A stretch of DNA of 64,000 nucleotides from NCBI RefSeq assembly GCF_000027125.1, contig NC_017626.1; one strand, given 5' to 3'. Numbering within the stretch: position 1 is the stretch's first letter; each line of letters starts with the position of its first letter. Under the pieces are notes generated by a model that worked only from the letters and a program-made list of their open reading frames with translations, was not told the origin of the DNA and ran no database searches. Source of the DNA: Escherichia coli 042 (GTDB taxonomy: Bacteria; Pseudomonadota; Gammaproteobacteria; Enterobacterales; Enterobacteriaceae). Shown here one piece after another: positions 3,384 to 26,719 of the stretch. A program made the translations under genes and the position numbers.

Positions 3384-3746
3384 GGGGCTGATTCTGGATT
3401 CGACGGGATTTGCGAAACCCAAGGTGCATGCCGAGGGGCGGTTGGCCTCGTAAAAAGCCGCAAAAAATAGTCGCAAACGACGAAAACTACGCTTTAGCAG
3501 CTTAATAACCTGCTTAGAGCCCTCTCTCCCTAGCCTCCGCTCTTAGGACGGGGATCAAGAGAGGTCAAACCCAAAAGAGATCGCGTGGAAGCCCTGCCTG
3601 GGGTTGAAGCGTTAAAACTTAATCAGGCTAGTTTGTTAGTGGCGTGTCCGTCCGCAGCTGGCAAGCGAATGTAAAGACTGACTAAGCATGTAGTACCGAG
3701 GACGTAGGAATTTCGGACGCGGGTTCAACTCCCGCCAGCTCCACCA
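3384..3746 (+). ncRNA. ssrA: tmRNA (SsrA), 363 nt
   Basis: Starts GGGGCTGATTCTGGATTCGACGGG, contains tag reading frame gcaaacgacgaaaactacgctttagcagcttaa (ANDENYALAA*), ends GGGTTCAACTCCCGCCAGCTCCACCA. Confidence 0.97.
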
Positions 3747-9516: not shown

Positions 9517-9632
9517 AATTACTTTTCCTTCTAGTTGTCAAAAACATGGAATACAATTAAAAAAGGAAAAGGTCAAACCATAGGCAGAAGGTTGAATACT
9601 TTTTATTCCAGATTAAATAACGCAGCGCGAGA

Positions 9633-9696
9633 TGATTGTTCAAAACAATCACATTGCTGGAACAGGGTTCATCCCTGTTAATGATAGGATTCATCT
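9633..9696. promoter_or_regulatory. Copy A of a roughly 64-bp repeat: palindrome TGATTGTT-CAA-AACAATCA plus hairpin ACAGGG-TTCAT-CCCTGT
   Basis: Near-identical copy at 24961-25023; palindrome alone again at 25101-25121; lies upstream of the mobC-like gene. Confidence 0.55.
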
Positions 9697-10149
9697 CAAA
9701 AAATGATGTTTTGGTTTTAAAAATATGATATTAGTAAGCTCAAAATAAAAACATGCAACACATACGAATGCAGTCACTAACATTAATTACCTGATACTCT
9801 CCGCGTTACTTATTTTATTGAATCAATGAAAACAATTTTACCTCTTGCTTTTTGACTCTGATTTCTGGTCTTAACCTGTGAATTGTGCAACACATAAAAG
9901 TATTTATAATTTTCACTATTTATTTTAAATTCTGCTTTCCCGCCTTACGGCGAGAGACTAATTTAACTACTTTTGCCCTTACGGGCGTTTTCTAAACACC
10001 AGAATCCAATATTATTATCCTACCTCAACCGTTTATCCGATTCCTACCTTTTTAATTTCACAGTCTGTAAAACTAGAGCTATTATTTAACTATAGAAAAA
10101 CATAAAACATTGTCGTTATTTTTAGCTCCTTTAGGAGATATAAAAATAA

Positions 10150-10260
10150 AGCAATGCCCACCTATACACTGCTACGCAGTGTGTGGGGTCTACCGACGGT
10201 TGCCTGCCGCAGGCTAACACCGTTTCCTTCGGAAACAAGGTCAACGTCAACACCAGAGTT
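10150..10260. other. Candidate origin of transfer (oriT), MOBQ/RSF1010-like
   Basis: Between divergent mobC-like and mobA-like genes; inverted repeats ACACTG-CTACG-CAGTGT (10157-10188) and GTTTCC-TTC-GGAAAC (10222-10236), the latter resembling the RSF1010 oriT inverted repeat. Confidence 0.5.
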
Positions 10261-18324: not shown

Positions 18325-19578
18325 TTATTCACTTGCCTGAGTCGCTCTTGTCGCATTTGTTTTTAAATTATTCAGCATTTGCTTATCAACCGGTTGCAGT
18401 TGTTGTCCTAACAGAGCCGCAAGCAAAATATTTGTGTCTTCTGTTCTTTCGATTTGAAGCATTTGTAATCTTAAATCAAGTGCCTGCATTCTTGCCTGCT
18501 CATGCGCAGTTTCTTTTTCATCAGCACTACTGATTTTTACCTGCCAAGCGTCAGCACCTGTTGTATCTGCATAGCGTGAATAGATCTCATATCTTAACAT
18601 TTCCCACTCTGAAGGATTATCCGGGAATGTTGTGCCGGGAAATAAGGTCGCATACTTGTTTTTTACGGAAGCATCTGACCAAGCAAGGTTTGCTCCCTGC
18701 GTAGAGCCCAATGTGGATCCTATTTTGGCCCCTCTGGAGTTCACTGATATATTACTTGCTTTTTTCATTGCCAGTACGGAATCAATGGCGTTTGTTCCAG
18801 CAGTGCTTCTGGAGACAAAGCTCGAAAAGGCCGATAAATATTCTCGACCTTCATTTGTGTCTTCTAATCCTTTGTTCTTCAATGGTTCAACGGGCAAGTT
18901 CCCTATAAGATTTCTTTTTGCCGCTTCAGCAACCTCAATCTGCTCAACAGAATAGGACTGATTCGAAACCTTATTAGACAATGCATCGGATTTAGATAAT
19001 GGTGGTGTAATCAGGCTTGATGCCGACTTATCTTTATCAGGATACTGACCTATAGTATTACACCCACCTCTGTTATATTTCACATCATCTTCGGAGCAAA
19101 CATTTATTGATACTCTGCCCATGATGTTTTTCTTGGCCTCATTTATTCTGGTATTTGCTTGTGTAAACATCTTAACGCTGTTTTCAGATAAAGCCTCTTT
19201 AGCTGAGCTTGTATTCGATCCTGCTGCACCACGACCACCTGCGCTCGTGACTTCTTCACAGGCGTTGGCATCAGGTATTCTGTTTAAGATATTTTTCATG
19301 CGCTGTTCTTGGATTGCCTGACTGGCATTACTGACAACCGCATTCTTCTGATTCTCACTGGCTGTTATGGTTGCTTGTGCCAGCTTGTCGTTCATTGAGA
19401 CTAATGTTTCAATTATTCCATTGCCCATAGATTGGGGTGAAGCCCCCATAAGATACGGTGTCAAAACCTCTTCTGTGACGGGCCAGACAGCGAAAGCTGT
19501 ATTTGTATATAATACAGAAAAACACAAAGCTGAAACCACTGTTATTCTCTTTACTTTAAATTTATTATTACTCATCAC
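18325..19578 (-). CDS. Secreted/periplasmic protein (417 aa), unknown function
   Basis: N-terminal signal peptide (…LYTNTAFAVWP); third gene of a three-gene minus-strand cluster. Confidence 0.6.
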   Translation of the reverse strand: MMSNNKFKVKRITVVSALCFSVLYTNTAFAVWPVTEEVLTPYLMGASPQSMGNGIIETLVSMNDKLAQATITASENQKNAVVSNASQAIQEQRMKNILNRIPDANACEEVTSAGGRGAAGSNTSSAKEALSENSVKMFTQANTRINEAKKNIMGRVSINVCSEDDVKYNRGGCNTIGQYPDKDKSASSLITPPLSKSDALSNKVSNQSYSVEQIEVAEAAKRNLIGNLPVEPLKNKGLEDTNEGREYLSAFSSFVSRSTAGTNAIDSVLAMKKASNISVNSRGAKIGSTLGSTQGANLAWSDASVKNKYATLFPGTTFPDNPSEWEMLRYEIYSRYADTTGADAWQVKISSADEKETAHEQARMQALDLRLQMLQIERTEDTNILLAALLGQQLQPVDKQMLNNLKTNATRATQASE

Positions 19579-19948
19579 AACACTCCTGTTAACTTATTAC
19601 CTTCTTTATTATTTAACCAATTAAATATGAACTGTCAATTTTAACAAAAATATTCATCTGGCATCCAACTTTAAAATTATTATAAAAGAAGCGTATAAAT
19701 CCAACGAAGTAGATTCCATGAACTAGCGTGGTGCTTTTATAGCTTTATCGATGAAGATAGATAGCATGAAATAACTTTACTTTTACGGGAGCATAAAACT
19801 TTATAAAAGTAATGTTTCCATTCAAAAAAGCCGTAGCAATATTTTATTTTAGATGCAGCCATTTCAACTTTGTTTATAAGAAAAAATATAAAGTGAGTTT
19901 CATTGCAGATAATAATCAGTTAGAAAGAGGACCGAAGCCCTCTTAATA

Positions 19949-22609
19949 TCACATTCCATCATTACCTTCTTTTGATGATGAACTACCACCGGAAGATCCA
20001 CTACCGCTCCCTTTCTCTGGAGCCTTAAAGCTTTCAATTGGTGAAGCTTGGGCCTGTAAACTTACAGGCAGCAACGGTCTGTTATGTTCACCAAACGATA
20101 CCGCTCTGTTAGCAGCCTTTTGAGCTACATTCATATAACCTGCTGCGCCTGCTGTATCACCAATAGCATCTGCTGCCTCAGCTGCATGGTAAGCCGAGTT
20201 AGCACTTTCAAGAGACTGATATTCATCCTGCTGATCAAGTGGGCCAGCATTACTCATATGAGTTCTGAATGCAGATCCCGTATCATTGGCTTTATTAGCC
20301 GCCAGTGCTTTCCCCTGTTGAGCCTGTTGCTGTTGTTGAAGCTCACGTTGCTGTTCACGGTCTTTGTTAATTTGCGCATTCCTGATCTGATTACCCATCG
20401 CATTTGAGGTATGGGAAACCTGATCCAACACGGTTTTGGTAAACATAGCACCTTCAACACCTTTTGATGCCGACTGTGCGTAACCCGACATGCTCTGACC
20501 ACCATGAACACCAAGCCACTTCATAATTTCATCAGGGATGATGTGAATCAGTGAAAGTGATTTCTTCACTACCGTGAACATCATTGCAATATAAACAGCA
20601 ATGAGAGCCAGTGACTCGATGATACCTATCCCGGCATTGGCTGACATCATGCCAAAAGCGCCGGAGAATGTTTCGTTGACGATCCCACCAAGGATAGGGA
20701 GCATCGTATAGGCTGCTATTAATCCTGTTATCATTAGCGCTGGTCGCATGGTTAACGATAAAACCAGACCATAACCAGCGCCACCACGACCCACTACGCC
20801 ATCACCATCTGGATGTAAATGTGTTATTACCCATAATGGTGCTGCGACCATTGCTTCAAGGCACAGGATCATCCAGCCTACGCAAACACCAAACCACATG
20901 ACGTAAGGCAGCATAGGAATGACGACGGCTAAAGTATCGCCAGCTATCCATAAAGGGATAACCAGTGGCATAACAATCCCCATAGCGCCAAATGCACCCG
21001 ATACCCAGCTTGCAGTCGCTGATGTCCATGCGCCAAGACCTGCCCCAACAACAGCAGAACTCCCTAATAACGTCCAGCCAGCGGCACTGATCGTATCCCC
21101 AAGCCCTTTAACAGCTAATAACGGGTTTATTGCCTGTAAATTGGCAGCGGTTGTGTCCGTCGAGAACGAGACGATTTTCCCTTGTTTTCTTCCATTGATA
21201 ACGCTGGAACTGAGAAAACCCGCCATTGCACCAGAAATGCTCTTATTGGCTTCACTTTGAAGAGAAGAAACTATTTTTCCAGCATCATCTGTTTTAGGGC
21301 CTACACCACTTTTACCACTGGTATTGGCTTCCGTTCGGTTTTGCGCATCAATACCATTCGCATATCTTGAAGCTGTCGTTGATTTCGCCATATCTTGAGC
21401 CACTTTTGCCATAATCGCGTTCAGGCTGTTATCGAATATATCTCCGTATTCCATTGTCGCTTGCCCGGCTACAGGAAGATTATGAGCTGCTCCATTAATC
21501 GCATCCTGCACACGGATCAGTTTCATACTCCATGCGCCAGCCATAAACCATCCGTCTTTCTGGACATTCTCTTTGAAATCATCCCACTGGTCGCCAGTGG
21601 AGAAAACTGTTCGTACTGCAGTATCAATAATGGATACATATGAGGCCGTTGCGCTGTTTATTCCGGTCTGAATATCAATATTATTATCGGCCACATACTG
21701 TTCAGCCAGCGTTTTCATACTATTATCAAGGCCGATAAATGCGGCATTGTGTGCCTCAATAACATCTGAAATATTCGTCTTTATATCCTGTGGCATATAA
21801 GCCATATACATGCCGCCAGCAGCAATGGTAGCCTGAGCTTTAGCCTGTTCGTCATAAGAAGCTTTGGCCTTCGGGTCTGTAAGCGTGATGCTTCCACATG
21901 CAGCCTTGGATACCAGTAAATTTTTATTCATATCATTACCGGCATTGCTGGCTCCATAACTGTATGTGTATAAATAGGCACCTTTCTCCGGTGTCATTTC
22001 AAACGCAGGCGTGACGTGCGGGAAGGGATCGGCTGCTGCTGATTTCTTCCATAATTCTCCCGCCTTTAACATACAGACGTTATTGATAAAGGCGGTTTTC
22101 GCTATGCGATCAAGCTCCTGATAAGATGCAGATGTGGTAATAACAGCCCCATCTGAGGGGTTGGATGCATAGGTATTCCAGACGGTATCTGCCAGACCGA
22201 CTCCCTGATTAATCATCCACAGCACCATAACCTGAGCGGCACAGAAACCACCTGCTGCCGGGAGTATCATTGCCGTGCCTAATGCAGTTCTTACGGGCAA
22301 CCACATGGAAGACCATTTCTTACCCAGCATTTCTCCGTCATGTGCCGTTGACATGGTTCCGGCAATCAGTGTGTAGGCAGCTAAAATGCCACCAACCAGT
22401 AAAACAGCGCTGTTAAGGATTGTCATTGTGCTGGCTAAGGGACTTTCCGCTAAATTGTCCGGGAATAAGATATCCAGAAACCACAGCTTTGATTTGTCTG
22501 TCTCCGGGACGGTAAATAAATCTGCGGCATAAGCTGACTGAGTTAATAACAGGCAAGCTAATATTACTAATAATATCGATACTTCTTTTTTCTTTATATT
22601 TATCATCAT
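19949..22609 (-). CDS. Large polytopic membrane protein (886 aa) with signal peptide and Gln-rich / Gly-Ser-rich C-terminus; possibly mating-pore related
   Basis: Signal peptide ...LLTQSAYAADL; many hydrophobic segments; C-terminal ELQQQQQAQQ and GSGSGSSGGSSSS low-complexity runs. Confidence 0.6.
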   Translation of the reverse strand: MMINIKKKEVSILLVILACLLLTQSAYAADLFTVPETDKSKLWFLDILFPDNLAESPLASTMTILNSAVLLVGGILAAYTLIAGTMSTAHDGEMLGKKWSSMWLPVRTALGTAMILPAAGGFCAAQVMVLWMINQGVGLADTVWNTYASNPSDGAVITTSASYQELDRIAKTAFINNVCMLKAGELWKKSAAADPFPHVTPAFEMTPEKGAYLYTYSYGASNAGNDMNKNLLVSKAACGSITLTDPKAKASYDEQAKAQATIAAGGMYMAYMPQDIKTNISDVIEAHNAAFIGLDNSMKTLAEQYVADNNIDIQTGINSATASYVSIIDTAVRTVFSTGDQWDDFKENVQKDGWFMAGAWSMKLIRVQDAINGAAHNLPVAGQATMEYGDIFDNSLNAIMAKVAQDMAKSTTASRYANGIDAQNRTEANTSGKSGVGPKTDDAGKIVSSLQSEANKSISGAMAGFLSSSVINGRKQGKIVSFSTDTTAANLQAINPLLAVKGLGDTISAAGWTLLGSSAVVGAGLGAWTSATASWVSGAFGAMGIVMPLVIPLWIAGDTLAVVIPMLPYVMWFGVCVGWMILCLEAMVAAPLWVITHLHPDGDGVVGRGGAGYGLVLSLTMRPALMITGLIAAYTMLPILGGIVNETFSGAFGMMSANAGIGIIESLALIAVYIAMMFTVVKKSLSLIHIIPDEIMKWLGVHGGQSMSGYAQSASKGVEGAMFTKTVLDQVSHTSNAMGNQIRNAQINKDREQQRELQQQQQAQQGKALAANKANDTGSAFRTHMSNAGPLDQQDEYQSLESANSAYHAAEAADAIGDTAGAAGYMNVAQKAANRAVSFGEHNRPLLPVSLQAQASPIESFKAPEKGSGSGSSGGSSSSKEGNDGM

Positions 22610-23470: not shown

Positions 23471-24235
23471 CTAAATATTATCCCAATCTAACGGTTCTTC
23501 TGGTGGCACAAGACTTGTGTTCTCTACAGAAGGGATTTCATTTATACTTTCACTCTTCACTAACCCTTGAGACTTTTTAGCCTGCAATCTTGCGATTAAC
23601 AAATCTATCTCATCTTGGTTATTAACTTCTTGTATAACTGCTTCAATTGACCTGTTTTTATCTTTAAGTATGCTATTGCCACCGCCATTGACGACTATGC
23701 TTTCGGGTTGTTCTTCCATTGCTTCTTTCTTTTTTATAATCTCTGATACAAAGCGAGCACGATCACCATTGAAGACAATAGCAGGGTTTATGAAATACCA
23801 GTTTTTCTCATTGGTTTTAGCAATAATACGTTTTTCGATGAGTTCTTTGATACCTCTGTAAAAGATAGATTCAGACAAAACAAAGTGATCTATCTTTTCC
23901 GCAAGAGACATTGCCTTTTTACAGCTCAGGTAGAAATGATCTTTGCCTATCGCATCCTGATATATTCGTAAAAATATGAAAAACACTTTGTATGCTGTTT
24001 TCGTGAGATCAAAATATGCTTTTATCTGAGAGGTATAGAGTTTAATGAACTCTTCTTTATCGACCTCTTGTGTATGCACGATATTGGCGAAGTAGCTTTT
24101 ACCTGTATCTTTCTTTTCGATAAGTTCTGTGCCTCTTGAAACGGTCAGATTTTTCTTTCGTGTTTCAATCTTTAGCTCTGTCTCAAAGCAAAAAGGATTT
24201 AACCCTAAATCTAAGTCAACGTCTATTTCATTCAT
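23471..24235 (-). CDS. Winged-helix DNA-binding protein, candidate replication initiator or regulator (254 aa)
   Basis: Central ...SIFYRGIKELIEKRIIAKT...YFINPAIVFNGDR block is winged-helix-like; paralogous layout to the 25693 gene; iteron-like array 170-250 bp upstream. Confidence 0.5.
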   Translation of the reverse strand: MNEIDVDLDLGLNPFCFETELKIETRKKNLTVSRGTELIEKKDTGKSYFANIVHTQEVDKEEFIKLYTSQIKAYFDLTKTAYKVFFIFLRIYQDAIGKDHFYLSCKKAMSLAEKIDHFVLSESIFYRGIKELIEKRIIAKTNEKNWYFINPAIVFNGDRARFVSEIIKKKEAMEEQPESIVVNGGGNSILKDKNRSIEAVIQEVNNQDEIDLLIARLQAKKSQGLVKSESINEIPSVENTSLVPPEEPLDWDNI

Positions 24236-24401
24236 TTCATTATTACCTCTTGTTGTTTTATTTATAATAAATTAAATACCATGCACAAAAAAGATATCAA
24301 GTTTTTTGCATATTTTTTTGCGAAAATATTTTCAAAATCGCAACTATTCCAGTGACGATACTTTAAAGCACTGTCGTTTTTAAGCTAAAAATGACATAGA
24401 A

Positions 24402-24484
24402 ACTGACTGCAAAGTCAGGAAAGCTCACCGTGCAGTCAGGAATACTGACTATAGAGTCAGGAACACTGACTGTACGGTCAGTCG
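24402..24484. repeat. Iteron-like array: 3-4 tandem units of ACTGACT-N4/5-AGTCAGGAA at about 21-22 bp periodicity
   Basis: AGTCAGGAA at 24412, 24434 and 24455; ACTGACT at 24402, 24444 and 24465; each unit is an inverted repeat. Confidence 0.65.
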
Positions 24485-24960
24485 TATATTTTCGTTCTAA
24501 GCCTTATGCCGTAAGGGCTACAGGCCGGTTTTTTCTTAATTTAATTTTGCAAGAAGTAAGAGATAATACTTAATAGGATTAAAAGAAACCGGGCGATTTT
24601 TATAATCGCCATACAGGGTTTCAATATTTTAAATGATTAGTTTTTTTGAGTGCAATATTTATTTTTATTGCGAAGCATTTCTTTCTATTTCACTAACATC
24701 TTTTTTTTGAAAATCACCACCATCTATGAGCTGAAGCTCATGTGCTGACGCACGGCTACGCCCTAACTCTGAAATATGTATTTTTATCTTGATGAGGTGT
24801 CTTATTAATATTGATAGTAAAAAGAGGAAAGATCTTTTCCAGATCATTTCATCATAAAAAACAAAATTGATCCTATGTTTGAACATAGCATTACCGCAAT
24901 AACATATAGCATTTTCCCTTAAACGAATAGGAAAATTATATTTTCAGTAGCAGCACTTAG

Positions 24961-25121
24961 TGATTGTTCAAGACAATCACATTGCTGGAACAGGGTTCAT
25001 CCCTGTCAATGATGGATTTATCCATAAAGAATTGCGGCGATAGCCGCTATGAAATAAAGGAGAAACAATTTCATCTGTACTCATATATAAGCAGTGCTAA
25101 GTGATTGTTTAAAACAATCAC
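24961..25121. promoter_or_regulatory. Copy B of the 64-bp repeat (24961-25023) plus a third copy of the palindrome GTGATTGTTTAAAACAATCAC (25101-25121)
   Basis: Copy B is about 90 percent identical to copy A at 9633-9696, including hairpin ACAGGGTTCATCCCTGT. Confidence 0.55.
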
Positions 25122-25389
25122 TTCGCTGTAATAACATTATAGTAAAAATAAAATAGGTAGCACAAGGTGCCATTTTCATAAGGCACAAATGAGTTTCATA
25201 GCAAAACGTTTCTGGATAGATCAATTAAGAAATATTTCAATACAATTCATCCTTCATTGCTGAAAACCTCCAACGCCATTCATAAAACAGCAGGTGCCAT
25301 TCAACAGGCACACATTCCCTTTTACTATATTAAACTTATTACTATATTACAGCTGTTATTTCTCATATAAAACAACATATTACAGAAAA

Positions 25390-25480
25390 AAGGTTATAGG
25401 TTCCTATAACTATGGTTATCGATATCTATAACTCGGATTATAGTTTACTATAACCATAATTAGCAAAAACTATAACTATA
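25390..25480. repeat. Cluster of about six CTATAAC / GTTATAG motifs in direct and inverted orientation
   Basis: aggttataggttcctataactatggttatcgatatctataactcggattatagtttactataaccataattagcaaaaactataactatagtt; about 200-300 bp upstream of the 25693 gene. Confidence 0.55.
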
Positions 25481-25692
25481 GTTCCGCACTGAAACTAATC
25501 TTTAAAACTGGCGAGCATTCCACTCTCAATAAACTTATTCCAGTCACGAATCAATAACGGCTTCAATTTATCCTGTTCTGTGGATGGTTTTCCACTATAT
25601 TAAAACTTTTTCCACTTATTTTTGACTTTGTTATTGACCATAGTGTTTAATCTGTTATGTATTAATAAAAACAATAACAAAAGGAAAATACA

Positions 25693-26391
25693 ATGACACA
25701 AATAGATTTTCAATCTCTTAGCAGTTTATCCCCCTTTCAGCTAACACAGTATATTGATGATCATCTTTTCACTAATGAACAGAAAGTGCAGATATTCGAA
25801 CATTATCACAGCACACATAAAGACACTACCAATATCTATTCGAGAAAAGAAAACATTAAATCTATTAAAAAAGATGTTGATTATGTCCATATGTTCACAA
25901 AAAACTTCCAGCAACTCGCAGAACTTGATATTTCCAAGAATGAGTTGAAGGTTATCGCAAGGATTTTAAACATCATGGAGTTTGGAAACTGCTTTCATAT
26001 ATCGCAAGCAAAGCTATGCCGCGACTTAGATATTAAAAAATCAAATATGTCTCTTGTCTTTAAAAAGCTCAAAAAGAAAGGGATCATTATTGATAAAGAT
26101 GGAGATCTCTTTATGAACTCCAACATATTTCTTAAGGGACAAGCGCATTCTATCAATGCCAAACAACGCCCTAATGTTAAAAAGGCACAGGGATTTAACG
26201 CTAATAATGAACCAGTATTTGATAATGTTTATACATTTAATCAAACAAATGATTCTGACAATCAACCTACAGAAGGAATGACTACATCTGAGCCACCAAA
26301 AACATCTGATAGCTGTTCTAACAAAGAAACAGATCCAGCACTGACGCTGCAGTATCCTAAAACAGAAGAGCCAGCTTATGATGATGTTTAA
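25693..26391 (+). CDS. Winged-helix DNA-binding protein, candidate Rep-like or regulator (232 aa)
   Basis: ...ISQAKLCRDLDIKKSNMSLVFKKLKKKGIIIDKDGDLFMNSNIFLKG winged-helix-like block; repeat array upstream. Confidence 0.5.
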   Translation: MTQIDFQSLSSLSPFQLTQYIDDHLFTNEQKVQIFEHYHSTHKDTTNIYSRKENIKSIKKDVDYVHMFTKNFQQLAELDISKNELKVIARILNIMEFGNCFHISQAKLCRDLDIKKSNMSLVFKKLKKKGIIIDKDGDLFMNSNIFLKGQAHSINAKQRPNVKKAQGFNANNEPVFDNVYTFNQTNDSDNQPTEGMTTSEPPKTSDSCSNKETDPALTLQYPKTEEPAYDDV

Positions 26392-26422: not shown

Positions 26423-26719
26423 CTACTGCCAGTCAATGAGATCCTCTGGTGATATCCTATCCTTCTCCATCAATTTGAGGATCTTTTTCATTTTTAACTT
26501 ACGTGCCTTTTTCTCACCAATCTCCTGATAGTATTCTTCCCGCCGTTCCGCTACTACCTTGCGGAACTTCTTCAAGAGTTTGTTCAATGTCTTTATATCA
26601 GTGGTAGCCGCTTCAGCTTGGATTTTTCTATACATATACATAACGTGGAATTCATCAATCATATTAAACCTCTTAGTTTTATCATTCATGTGATTTCCCT
26701 CTTTCGAGGGAATACTCAT
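26423..26719 (-). CDS. Hypothetical small protein (98 aa)
   Basis: Last gene in a co-oriented run of small genes. Confidence 0.45.
   Translation of the reverse strand: MSIPSKEGNHMNDKTKRFNMIDEFHVMYMYRKIQAEAATTDIKTLNKLLKKFRKVVAERREEYYQEIGEKKARKLKMKKILKLMEKDRISPEDLIDWQ

What the first reader, a model, noticed from the sequence alone, without database searches (positions are those of the whole stretch)
23471..26391. Two divergent winged-helix genes flanking a 1.45-kb noncoding hub with two distinct iteron arrays
Upstream of the minus-strand winged-helix gene lie 3-4 tandem ACTGACT-N-AGTCAGGAA units (24402-24484). Upstream of the plus-strand gene lie about six CTATAAC/GTTATAG motifs (25390-25480). 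Between them are two copies of the island-wide palindromic operator and a terminator-like hairpin. This organisation resembles plasmid or phage-plasmid origins with Rep-binding iterons, or a centromere/partition site, suggesting the excised island may replicate or be actively maintained.
Basis: partly seen in the sequence, partly recalled or inferred. Interest (0 to 1): 0.65.

Follow-up and report, generated by a model that had tools for sequence, protein, structure and literature searches.

The report
Two plasmid-type replication modules in island
An E. coli genomic island next to the tmRNA gene carries two back-to-back copies of a small-plasmid replication unit (initiator gene plus its repeated binding sites), which suggests that this widespread island family can copy itself once it leaves the chromosome, although this has not been shown.

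Summary
Four CTGACT-N4-AGTCAG palindromes sit 21 bp apart at 24403-24481. Four GTTATAG-N4-CTATAAC units sit 22 bp apart at 25393-25483. A palindrome pair lies between them.

Neither flanking protein matches Pfam or NCBIfam. By tblastn, however, both match the replication initiators of 2.3-2.9 kb enterobacterial plasmids:
- The 254-aa protein is 47-63% identical to the sole or main ORF of such plasmids.
- The 232-aa protein is 34-40% identical to RepM (pIGMS31), RepR (pIGRK) and Rep (pHW126), which have been characterised experimentally.

The two proteins are distant paralogues (hhalign 92.5%, E 5e-7) in the RepL superfamily. Each module keeps the pHW126-family layout of conserved region, four iterons, promoter and rep gene. 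Array B uses the same 18-bp iteron as pIGMS31.

The hub is conserved in Salmonella and Klebsiella islands. There the cis elements are 93-100% identical, although the 232-aa gene has dS of 0.63-0.74.

The island belongs to the ROD21-like (EARL) family. ROD21's SEN1990 is a B-type homologue with its own four iterons. Deleting it did not change island copy number, so replication of the island remains an inference. The centromere and phage-plasmid readings found no support.

The parts
23471..24235 (-). repA-like gene (254 aa), A-type RepL-superfamily initiator homologue
   Evidence: 47-63% identical to the sole or main ORF of 2.5-2.9 kb plasmids. The family has 2091 clusters at 50% identity. The model shows a winged-helix core. 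dN/dS is 0.10-0.39.
24236..24401 (-). repA promoter/operator region
   Evidence: 97.6-99.4% identical in the E. coli, Salmonella and Klebsiella islands. Assigned by its position between the iterons and the start codon, as in pIGRK and pIGMS31 (PMC6854812). The promoter itself was not mapped.
24402..24484 (.). Array A: four 21-bp iterons, each a CTGACT-N4-AGTCAG palindrome
   Evidence: Conserved in Salmonella (4 units) and Klebsiella (3 units), with changes in the N4 spacers.
24495..24585 (-). A-module origin core: motif 2 (24495-24530) and a conserved-region-like TCTTA-repeat stretch (24535-24585)
   Evidence: Aligns with the conserved region and the CCCTTGATATTAC motif of pHW126, pIGRK and pIGMS31, and with the A-type plasmids L002, L004 and L005. 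92-98% identical across genera.
24585..24622 (.). Distal hairpin of the A module, a candidate ssi-like element
   Evidence: Folds as DNA with z -3.4. It occupies the position of the ssi palindrome in pHW126-family modules (PMC6854812). This is an inference.
24725..25190 (.). Central structured non-coding module: GTGCTGACGCACGGCTACGCCCT (24742-24764), CTATGTTTGAACATAG (24873-24888), palindrome P1 (24949-24990), hairpins at 24990-25006, 25014-25023 and 25034-25047, palindrome P2 (25090-25131)
   Evidence: Present in 780 of 5426 complete E. coli genomes. It lay upstream of a RepL-type gene in every locus inspected. Compensatory changes keep two of the hairpins paired. No Rfam family matches.
25317..25392 (+). 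B-module conserved-region-like stretch (25317-25352) and ATATTACAG-A6 motif (25376-25392)
   Evidence: Aligns weakly with the plasmid conserved region and better with motif 2. 96-99% identical across genera, while the adjacent gene has dS 0.63-0.74.
25393..25483 (.). Array B: four 22-bp iterons, GTTATAG-N4-CTATAAC
   Evidence: Same unit as the pIGMS31 iterons GTTATAGATTCCTATAAC. 93-100% identical across genera.
25484..25692 (+). repB promoter/operator region with GTTAT/ATAAC half-sites
   Evidence: Read directly from the sequence. Assigned by analogy with the IR1/IR2 operators of pIGMS31 (bioRxiv 10.1101/2022.12.05.519187). Not mapped.
25693..26391 (+). repB-like gene (232 aa), B-type pHW126-family initiator homologue
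   Evidence: 34-40% identical to RepM, RepR and pHW126 Rep. 43% identical to the SEN1990-type protein. dN/dS is 0.17-0.21. The model shows a winged-helix core.
9620..9700 (.). Partial extra copy of the central module (palindrome plus hairpin 2), between traD and mobQ
   Evidence: 93.7% identity over 63 bp.

Best explanation
The hub consists of two complete replication modules of the pHW126/pIGRK/pIGMS31 type (RepL superfamily), placed back to back inside a ROD21-like (EARL-family) mobilisable island.

Each module has a winged-helix initiator gene, its promoter, four iterons two helical turns apart, and a conserved region distal to the iterons. A structured non-coding module lies between the two, where these plasmids carry their single-strand-initiation palindrome.

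Inferred mechanism, by analogy with the plasmids:
1. Each Rep dimer binds its own palindromic iterons and represses its own promoter.
2. It opens or nicks the adjacent conserved region.
3. This starts replication of the circular, excised island, or of the copy that has just entered a recipient cell.
4. The free form is thereby kept and amplified until it is transferred or re-integrated.

Shown here: the homology, the architecture, the sharing of one iteron type with pIGMS31, and purifying selection on the genes and the cis elements. Inferred only: DNA binding, origin firing and any effect on island maintenance.
For: Homology of the proteins
- The A protein is 47-63% identical to the main ORF of 2.5-2.9 kb plasmids. 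One of these plasmids has that ORF as its only annotated gene.
- The B protein is 34-40% identical to RepM, RepR and pHW126 Rep. Their roles as initiators and autorepressors, and the minimal origins made of the conserved region plus IT1-4, were shown experimentally (PMC6854812; bioRxiv 10.1101/2022.12.05.519187).
- Plasmid members of both alignments match Pfam RepL (best 7.4e-5 and 5.4e-8).
- The A and B profiles are homologous to each other (hhalign 92.5%, E 5e-7).

Cis elements
- The iterons number four, with periods of 21 and 22 bp, matching IT1-4 of the family (20 bp plus a 2-bp spacer).
- Array B has the pIGMS31 iteron unit.
- A-type plasmids have analogous arrays with a 20-22 bp period upstream of rep.
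- The conserved region and motif 2 align in the same order.

Conservation
- The same hub occurs in Salmonella and Klebsiella islands.
- dN/dS is 0.1-0.4. The B cis elements are 93-100% identical, against dS 0.63-0.74 in the gene.
- Palindrome arms stay fixed while the spacers change.
- SEN1990-type islands have the same layout with a different iteron, CTATGTT-N2-AACATAG in four copies.
Against: - Deleting SEN1990, the only Rep homologue I saw in the ROD21-type locus I inspected (L026), changed neither island copy number (one per chromosome) nor the amount of excised circle (PMC10655114). Only about 3% of cells had excised the island, and conditions after transfer were not tested.
- The window proteins themselves match no Pfam or NCBIfam family. 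The link runs only through the plasmid homologues.
- The conserved region of module B is only loosely similar to the plasmid one.
- blastn found no DNA-level match of either origin in plasmids.
- The replication mode of the pHW126 family is itself unsettled (rolling circle or theta), and RepM nicks DNA non-specifically in vitro.
- Why one island needs two modules is not explained.
Confidence: 0.6

Rival explanations
1. The two proteins are domesticated winged-helix transcription factors. The arrays are operators for autoregulation and for control of island or host genes, and no replication is involved. This is the published view of SEN1990.
For: - A SEN1990 deletion did not alter ROD21 copy number but lowered oafB expression and organ colonisation (PMC10655114).
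- pHW126-family Reps are also autorepressors (PMC6854812).
- The only fold matches are generic MarR/ArsR-like winged helices.
Against: - Autoregulation needs one operator. It does not need four phased iterons plus a conserved-region-like stretch laid out as in a plasmid minimal origin.
- The distal origin-like DNA is as conserved as the promoter, or more so.
- The closest homologues are the only candidate initiators of 2.3-2.9 kb plasmids.
Confidence: 0.2
2. The modules serve in plasmid incompatibility or cross-talk. Chromosomal iterons and Rep titrate or handcuff the replication machinery of co-resident pHW126-like small plasmids. Alternatively, a resident plasmid's Rep fires the island origin.
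For: - Array B has the same unit as the pIGMS31 iterons.
- IT1-4 and the repM ORF are incompatibility determinants in pIGMS31, as is IT1-4 in pIGRK (bioRxiv 10.1101/2022.12.05.519187; PMC6854812).
Against: - No plasmid with array A iterons was found.
- The island keeps full-length rep genes under purifying selection, not just the iterons.
- Nothing tested here addresses incompatibility directly.
Confidence: 0.1
3. The modules are inert remnants of small plasmids that once integrated into the island.
For: The modules resemble whole small-plasmid replicons, and different island variants carry different Rep types at the same position. This suggests cassette exchange.
Against: - The ORFs are intact, with dN/dS of 0.1-0.4.
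- The cis elements are nearly invariant across three genera.
- The arrangement is present in many Enterobacterales.
Confidence: 0.07
4. The arrays are partition centromeres bound by winged-helix centromere-binding proteins.
For: Phased repeats upstream of a DNA-binding protein gene also describe some parS/parC sites.
Against: - No ParA- or ParM-type gene was seen next to the hub.
- Both proteins are homologous to initiators, not to centromere-binding proteins.
Confidence: 0.03

Closest known systems
pHW126-like plasmid replicons (pHW126, pIGRK, pIGMS31)
   Same: - The initiator is homologous (B protein 34-40% identical; the A family is linked by profile comparison and by Pfam RepL matches of its plasmid members).
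- There are four iterons with a period of about 22 bp.
- A conserved region lies distal to the iterons.
- Palindromic elements lie further out, and the rep gene faces away from the origin.
- Array B and pIGMS31 share the iteron unit.
   Different: - The modules sit in a chromosomal integrative mobilisable island, not in a 2-3 kb plasmid.
- Two modules of different specificity lie back to back.
- The ssi position is occupied by a different, larger structured module.
- The conserved region of module B is diverged.
- No replication has been shown.
SEN1990 of Salmonella island ROD21 (EARL family)
   Same: - It lies at the same position in the same island family.
- The SEN1990-type protein is 43% identical to the B protein.
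- It has the same layout of central module, conserved-region-like stretch, four 22-bp iterons and gene.
   Different: - The iteron sequence differs (CTATGTT-N2-AACATAG).
- The ROD21-type locus I inspected has one module and no A-type gene.
- It is published as a transcription regulator that does not act in replication. That paper mentions neither iterons nor the pHW126 family.
Staphylococcal RepL plasmids (pSN2 group; Pfam PF05732)
   Same: Same superfamily: plasmid homologues of both proteins reach the Pfam model. The A family keeps the conserved Asn-Pro motif (N150, P151).
   Different: The window proteins do not reach the Pfam threshold themselves. The B family has Asn-Ser in place of Asn-Pro.
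Replicating mobilisable islands such as SGI1 (from my own knowledge, not tested here)
   Same: An integrative mobilisable island that carries its own rep gene and origin. It also carries a few T4SS subunit homologues, here TraW and DotA/TraY.
   Different: The initiator family is unrelated. No helper-dependent activation is known here. Replication of this island family has not been observed.

Membership tests
pHW126-like replicon (REP module) | Rep protein homologous to pHW126 Rep, RepR or RepM, with a central winged helix | tested here: met
   B protein: tblastn 34-40% identity over 63-71% of its length and a full-length alignment. A protein: linked through its own plasmid homologues and by hhalign to the B family (92.5%, E 5e-7). 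The models show a winged helix in both.
pHW126-like replicon (REP module) | Four iteron-like direct repeats of about 20 bp with 2-bp spacers upstream of rep | tested here: met
   Array A has four units with a 21-bp period. Array B has four units with a 22-bp period. The array B unit equals the pIGMS31 iteron.
pHW126-like replicon (REP module) | Conserved region (CR) distal to the iterons | tested here: inconclusive
   Module A aligns with the TCTTA-repeat conserved region and with motif 2. Module B keeps motif 2, but its conserved region is only loosely similar. No statistical test was possible on such short AT-rich DNA.
pHW126-like replicon (REP module) | ssi-like palindrome beyond the conserved region (not essential for replication) | tested here: inconclusive
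   Stable hairpins occupy that position: 24585-24622, P1 and P2 (z -3.4 to -5.5). They have no sequence similarity to the plasmid ssi, and priming was not tested.
pHW126-like replicon (REP module) | Supports autonomous replication; Rep acts in trans on the conserved region plus iterons; Rep represses its own promoter | not testable with these tools
   This needs the two-plasmid assay of Wawrzyniak et al. 2019. The only related experiment, the SEN1990 deletion in ROD21, was negative for copy number (PMC10655114).
Pfam RepL (PF05732) | A significant match to the family HMM | tested here: not met
   The window proteins give no RepL match. One of 8 A-family sequences and 3 of 8 B-family sequences match at E <= 0.001. 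Membership holds at superfamily level only.
EARL (ROD21-like) genomic islands | P4-type integrase, AlpA-like RDF, TraD, MOBQ relaxase, H-NS paralogue, SEN1982-type lipoprotein, same gene order | tested here: met
   RefSeq annotation of a 99.9% identical locus. The gene order matches the Salmonella, Klebsiella and ROD21-type loci. One difference: this island lies next to ssrA, whereas the published members are described at Asn-tRNA genes (PMC10763509).
Partition centromere | An adjacent ParA/ParM-type NTPase and a centromere-binding protein | tested here: not met
   Neither the ORF list nor the RefSeq annotation shows such a gene around the hub.
Phage or phage-plasmid replication module | Homologues in phage genomes | tested here: not met
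   tblastn of both proteins against 50,697 phage records found no match. PHROGs gave only weak 'replication initiation O-like' hits (E 0.0017).

The most novel reading that the evidence does not exclude
The hub is an establishment unit for an island that travels as single-stranded DNA.
- The widely conserved central hairpin module acts as a single-strand initiation signal, or as a structured RNA. It converts the incoming strand to a duplex, and a partial copy sits near the transfer genes.
- The two initiator-origin pairs of different specificity then replicate the circle transiently until it integrates.

If so, ROD21-like islands would be conditionally replicating elements, and the published view that SEN1990 has no role in replication would hold only for uninduced cultures.
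Probability: 0.25. Interest if true: 0.7.

Novelty: new member of a known kind. Interest (0 to 1): 0.52.

Why it matters
ROD21-like islands are common in E. coli, Salmonella, Klebsiella (including the ST258 island ICEKp258.2) and plant pathogens. How their excised form survives is unknown.

The one gene in this region that has been studied, SEN1990, was judged not to be a replication protein. That judgement rested on comparison with Gram-positive RepL proteins and on a negative copy-number test. Neither iterons nor the pHW126 plasmid family appear in that paper.

Recognising complete pHW126-type modules, with conserved iterons, gives a concrete and testable hypothesis for island replication or establishment after transfer. 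It also predicts cross-talk or incompatibility with common small cryptic plasmids such as pIGMS31. Finally, it offers chromosomal, cross-genus comparative data for a poorly understood initiator family that has no solved structure.

Tried and rejected
- Direct family searches with the two proteins gave nothing significant: Pfam, NCBIfam, PHROGs, PADLOC and PDB sequences.
- Pairwise BLASTP between the two proteins showed no similarity. An 8-sequence profile comparison was marginal. Only deeper alignments showed the homology.
- Foldseek against the PDB returned only generic winged-helix hits with E > 0.03.
- blastn of either origin against plasmids found no match.
- No direct repeat of the ssrA 3' end of at least 12 bp was found, so the right end of the island was not mapped.
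- I suspected that GTGCTGACGCACGGCTACGCCCT (24742-24764) was a MOBQ nick site. RSF1010 was not in the collection. The sequence shared with small plasmids that carry a homologous relaxase lies at 10153-10190, just upstream of mobQ. The origin of transfer is therefore more likely there, and the hub motif remains unexplained.
- The supplements of the SEN1990 paper hold no sequence. I identified SEN1990 indirectly, in two ways. The E. coli ORF (L016 8974-9708, 244 aa) fits the residue numbering given in the paper (K71, K118-L121, I130). It is also 92% identical to a Salmonella cluster of more than 1000 contigs that RefSeq names RepL.
Full report
**Context.**
The window is E. coli chromosome. A tmRNA gene lies at 3384-3746 and is followed by an integrase gene. 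A 99.9% identical locus in RefSeq annotates the region as an island. That island carries a DNA methyltransferase, TraD, a MobQ relaxase, a SEN1982-family lipoprotein, H-NS paralogues, TraW and DotA/TraY homologues, an AlpA-like regulator and a DUF6387 protein. This gene set and order are those of the Enterobacteriaceae-associated ROD21-like (EARL) islands (PMC6035254, PMC10763509). The finding lies in the middle of the island. In RefSeq both flanking genes are 'hypothetical protein', and nothing is annotated in the 1457 bp between them.

**Observation.**
- Array A is four CTGACT-N4-AGTCAG palindromes exactly 21 bp apart, at 24403-24481.
- Array B is four GTTATAG-N4-CTATAAC units 22 bp apart, at 25393-25483. 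The fourth unit is half degenerate.
- Apart from one 2-mismatch array A hit at 34141, the arrays are unique in the 64 kb and far above the shuffle expectation.
- The palindrome GTGATTGT-N5-ACAATCAC occurs at 24960 and 25101, and once more at 9632. 'Island-wide' is therefore too strong.

**What the proteins are.**
Direct searches with the two proteins gave nothing significant in Pfam, NCBIfam, PHROGs, PADLOC or PDB sequences. A tblastn search against plasmids was decisive.

The 254-aa protein (A) is 47-63% identical to the sole or main ORF of 2.5-2.9 kb enterobacterial plasmids. One 2873-bp Klebsiella plasmid has that ORF as its only annotated gene.

The 232-aa protein (B) is 34-40% identical to three proteins:
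- RepM of pIGMS31
- RepR of pIGRK
- Rep of pHW126

Both proteins align over their full length with their plasmid homologues. Plasmid members of both alignments reach Pfam RepL. With deeper alignments the two families are homologous to each other over 105 columns (hhalign 92.5%, E 5e-7). The two divergent genes are therefore distant paralogues. The A family is large, with 2091 clusters at 50% identity.

AlphaFold2 models give a confident three-stranded winged-helix core in both proteins. The PDB holds no relative beyond generic winged helices. There are no phage homologues.

**What the DNA is.**
The literature defines the family's REP module as this series:
1. an ssi-like palindrome
2. a conserved region (CR)
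3. four 20-bp iterons with 2-bp spacers
4. operator repeats
5. the rep gene

The conserved region plus the iterons form the minimal origin, and the iterons are incompatibility determinants.

Both modules in the window follow this order, reading outward from each gene. Array B uses essentially the pIGMS31 iteron: GTTATAGGTTCCTATAAC against GTTATAGATTCCTATAAC. A-type plasmids carry their own arrays with a 20-22 bp period at the same distance upstream of rep.

Distal to array A lie two stretches that align with the plasmid origins:
- 24495-24530 aligns with the CCCTTGATATTAC motif.
- 24535-24585 aligns with the TCTTA-repeat conserved region.

Module B keeps the ATATTAC-A-run motif next to the first iteron. 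Its conserved region is only loosely similar.

**Conservation.**
The same gene pair and hub occur in Salmonella and Klebsiella islands. Homologues of both proteins are found in Pectobacterium, Dickeya, Yersinia, Citrobacter, Erwinia and other genera.
- Both genes are under purifying selection, with dN/dS of 0.10-0.39.
- The B gene has dS of 0.63-0.74 between the window and the other two islands. Its conserved-region-like stretch is 96-99% identical and its iterons 93-100%.
- Within the palindromes, the arms are fixed and the spacers vary.

This pattern fits selection on the non-coding elements, although mosaic recombination could contribute to it.

**Link to SEN1990.**
Two lines of evidence tie SEN1990 to a 244-aa ORF in another E. 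coli island (L016 8974-9708):
- The ORF fits the residue numbering published for SEN1990 (K71, K118-L121, I130).
- It is 92% identical to a Salmonella cluster of more than 1000 contigs that RefSeq names RepL.

This ORF is 43% identical to protein B. Upstream of it, in E. coli and in a Salmonella ROD21-type locus, lie the following:
- the same palindrome pair
- a clear conserved-region-like stretch (CTCTCTTAACTTCTTAC)
- four 22-bp iterons of a different sequence (CTATGTT-N2-AACATAG)

E. coli 536 and MP1 carry yet another RepL type at this position. The strain 536 protein is 29% identical to A, with E 6e-22.

The island family therefore carries exchangeable Rep-iteron cassettes at a fixed site.

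The published study of SEN1990 does not mention iterons or the pHW126 family. It found ROD21 at one copy per chromosome and saw no effect of the deletion on the excised form. I saw only that one Rep homologue in the ROD21-type locus I inspected. This is real evidence against constitutive replication. However, only about 3% of cells had excised the island, and the authors themselves leave replication after transfer open.

**The middle of the hub.**
The segment at about 24725-25190 is much more widespread than this particular Rep pair. It is found in 780 of 5426 complete E. coli genomes. It lay 0.3-0.6 kb upstream of a RepL-type gene in every locus I inspected.

It contains P1, P2 and three smaller hairpins. 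Two of the hairpins keep their pairing through changes on both sides:
- ACAGGG/CCCTGT becomes GGAG/CTCC.
- GCGGC/GCCGC becomes GCGTC/GACGC.

This points to a folded single strand, either DNA or RNA, rather than a simple operator. The sample is small (8 sequences, few independent events). No Rfam family matches. A partial copy lies between traD and mobQ.

By its position, the module corresponds to the ssi element of the plasmids. That is an inference only.

A conserved motif at 24742-24764 looked like a relaxase nick site. The sequence shared with small MOBQ plasmids, however, lies at 10153-10190.

**Verdict.**
The identification as two pHW126-type replication modules rests on homology, architecture, a shared iteron and selection. 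I hold it at about 0.9. That the modules actually replicate or establish the excised island is an inference, at about 0.5. The combined statement is scored 0.6.

The rivals, in order of weight:
1. domesticated regulators
2. plasmid incompatibility or cross-talk
3. inert relics
4. a partition centromere

The kind of system is known: an iteron replicon of a described plasmid family, and islands that replicate. The case is new in three respects:
- Its place is a chromosomal mobilisable island family.
- The arrangement is double.
- It conflicts with the published reading of SEN1990.

Noticed in passing
window 24725-25190 (and 9620-9700): A structured non-coding module (palindromes P1 and P2 plus three hairpins) is present in 780 of 5426 complete E. 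coli genomes. It lay upstream of a RepL-type gene in every locus inspected. Two hairpins keep their pairing through compensatory changes. There is no Rfam match. A partial copy lies between traD and mobQ.
   Followed up: partly
window 24742-24764: The motif GTGCTGACGCACGGCTACGCCCT, preceded by short inverted repeats, marks the left edge of the central module. It recurs in E. coli 536 (L019 ~5003) and twice in a Salmonella ROD21-type locus (L026 ~2771 and ~3257). Its function is unknown. A relaxase nick site was considered but not supported.
   Followed up: partly
window 10153-10190: AATGCCCACCTATACACTGC-TAC-GCAGTGTGTGGGG, just upstream of mobQ, matches the traD-mobQ intergenic region of 3.4-3.9 kb MOBQ plasmids whose relaxase is 57% identical. 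It is a likely origin of transfer for the island.
   Followed up: partly
window 24873-24888: A single CTATGTTTGAACATAG palindrome in the central module equals the iteron unit of SEN1990-type islands (L016 8757-8850; L026 3795-3877). It could be a cross-recognition site or a vestige.
   Followed up: no
L026 2760-3660: In a Salmonella ROD21-type locus the central module is partly duplicated. The divergent neighbour is an 89-aa ORF rather than an A-type rep gene, so I saw only one Rep-iteron module there.
   Followed up: partly
window 18325-22609: The island encodes TraW-family and DotA/TraY-family proteins, which are parts of an IncI-type transfer apparatus, but I saw no complete secretion system. 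This recalls mobilisable islands that replace subunits of a helper plasmid's mating apparatus. That comparison is from my own knowledge and was not tested.
   Followed up: no
plasmids CP110748.1 (~126-133 kb), NZ_AP028969.1 (~60-68 kb), CP088875.1 (~133 kb): Homologues of the island's MobQ relaxase (60-76% identical) occur in all three of these 300-500 kb plasmids. Rep-like gene hits were seen in two of them (CP110748.1 and NZ_AP028969.1). EARL-like elements may therefore also sit in megaplasmids.
   Followed up: no
window 26423-26719: A short H-NS-family ORF (98 aa as listed here; 79 aa in RefSeq, N-terminal domain only) lies convergent with the B-type rep gene. It is conserved at that position in the Salmonella and Klebsiella islands.
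   Followed up: no
window 30281-34984, 37995-38070: A 1567-aa ORF with about 50% G+C and a tRNA-Met gene lie beyond the point where the island ends in the closest RefSeq genome. The window therefore holds extra inserted DNA. The right end of the island was not mapped.
   Followed up: no
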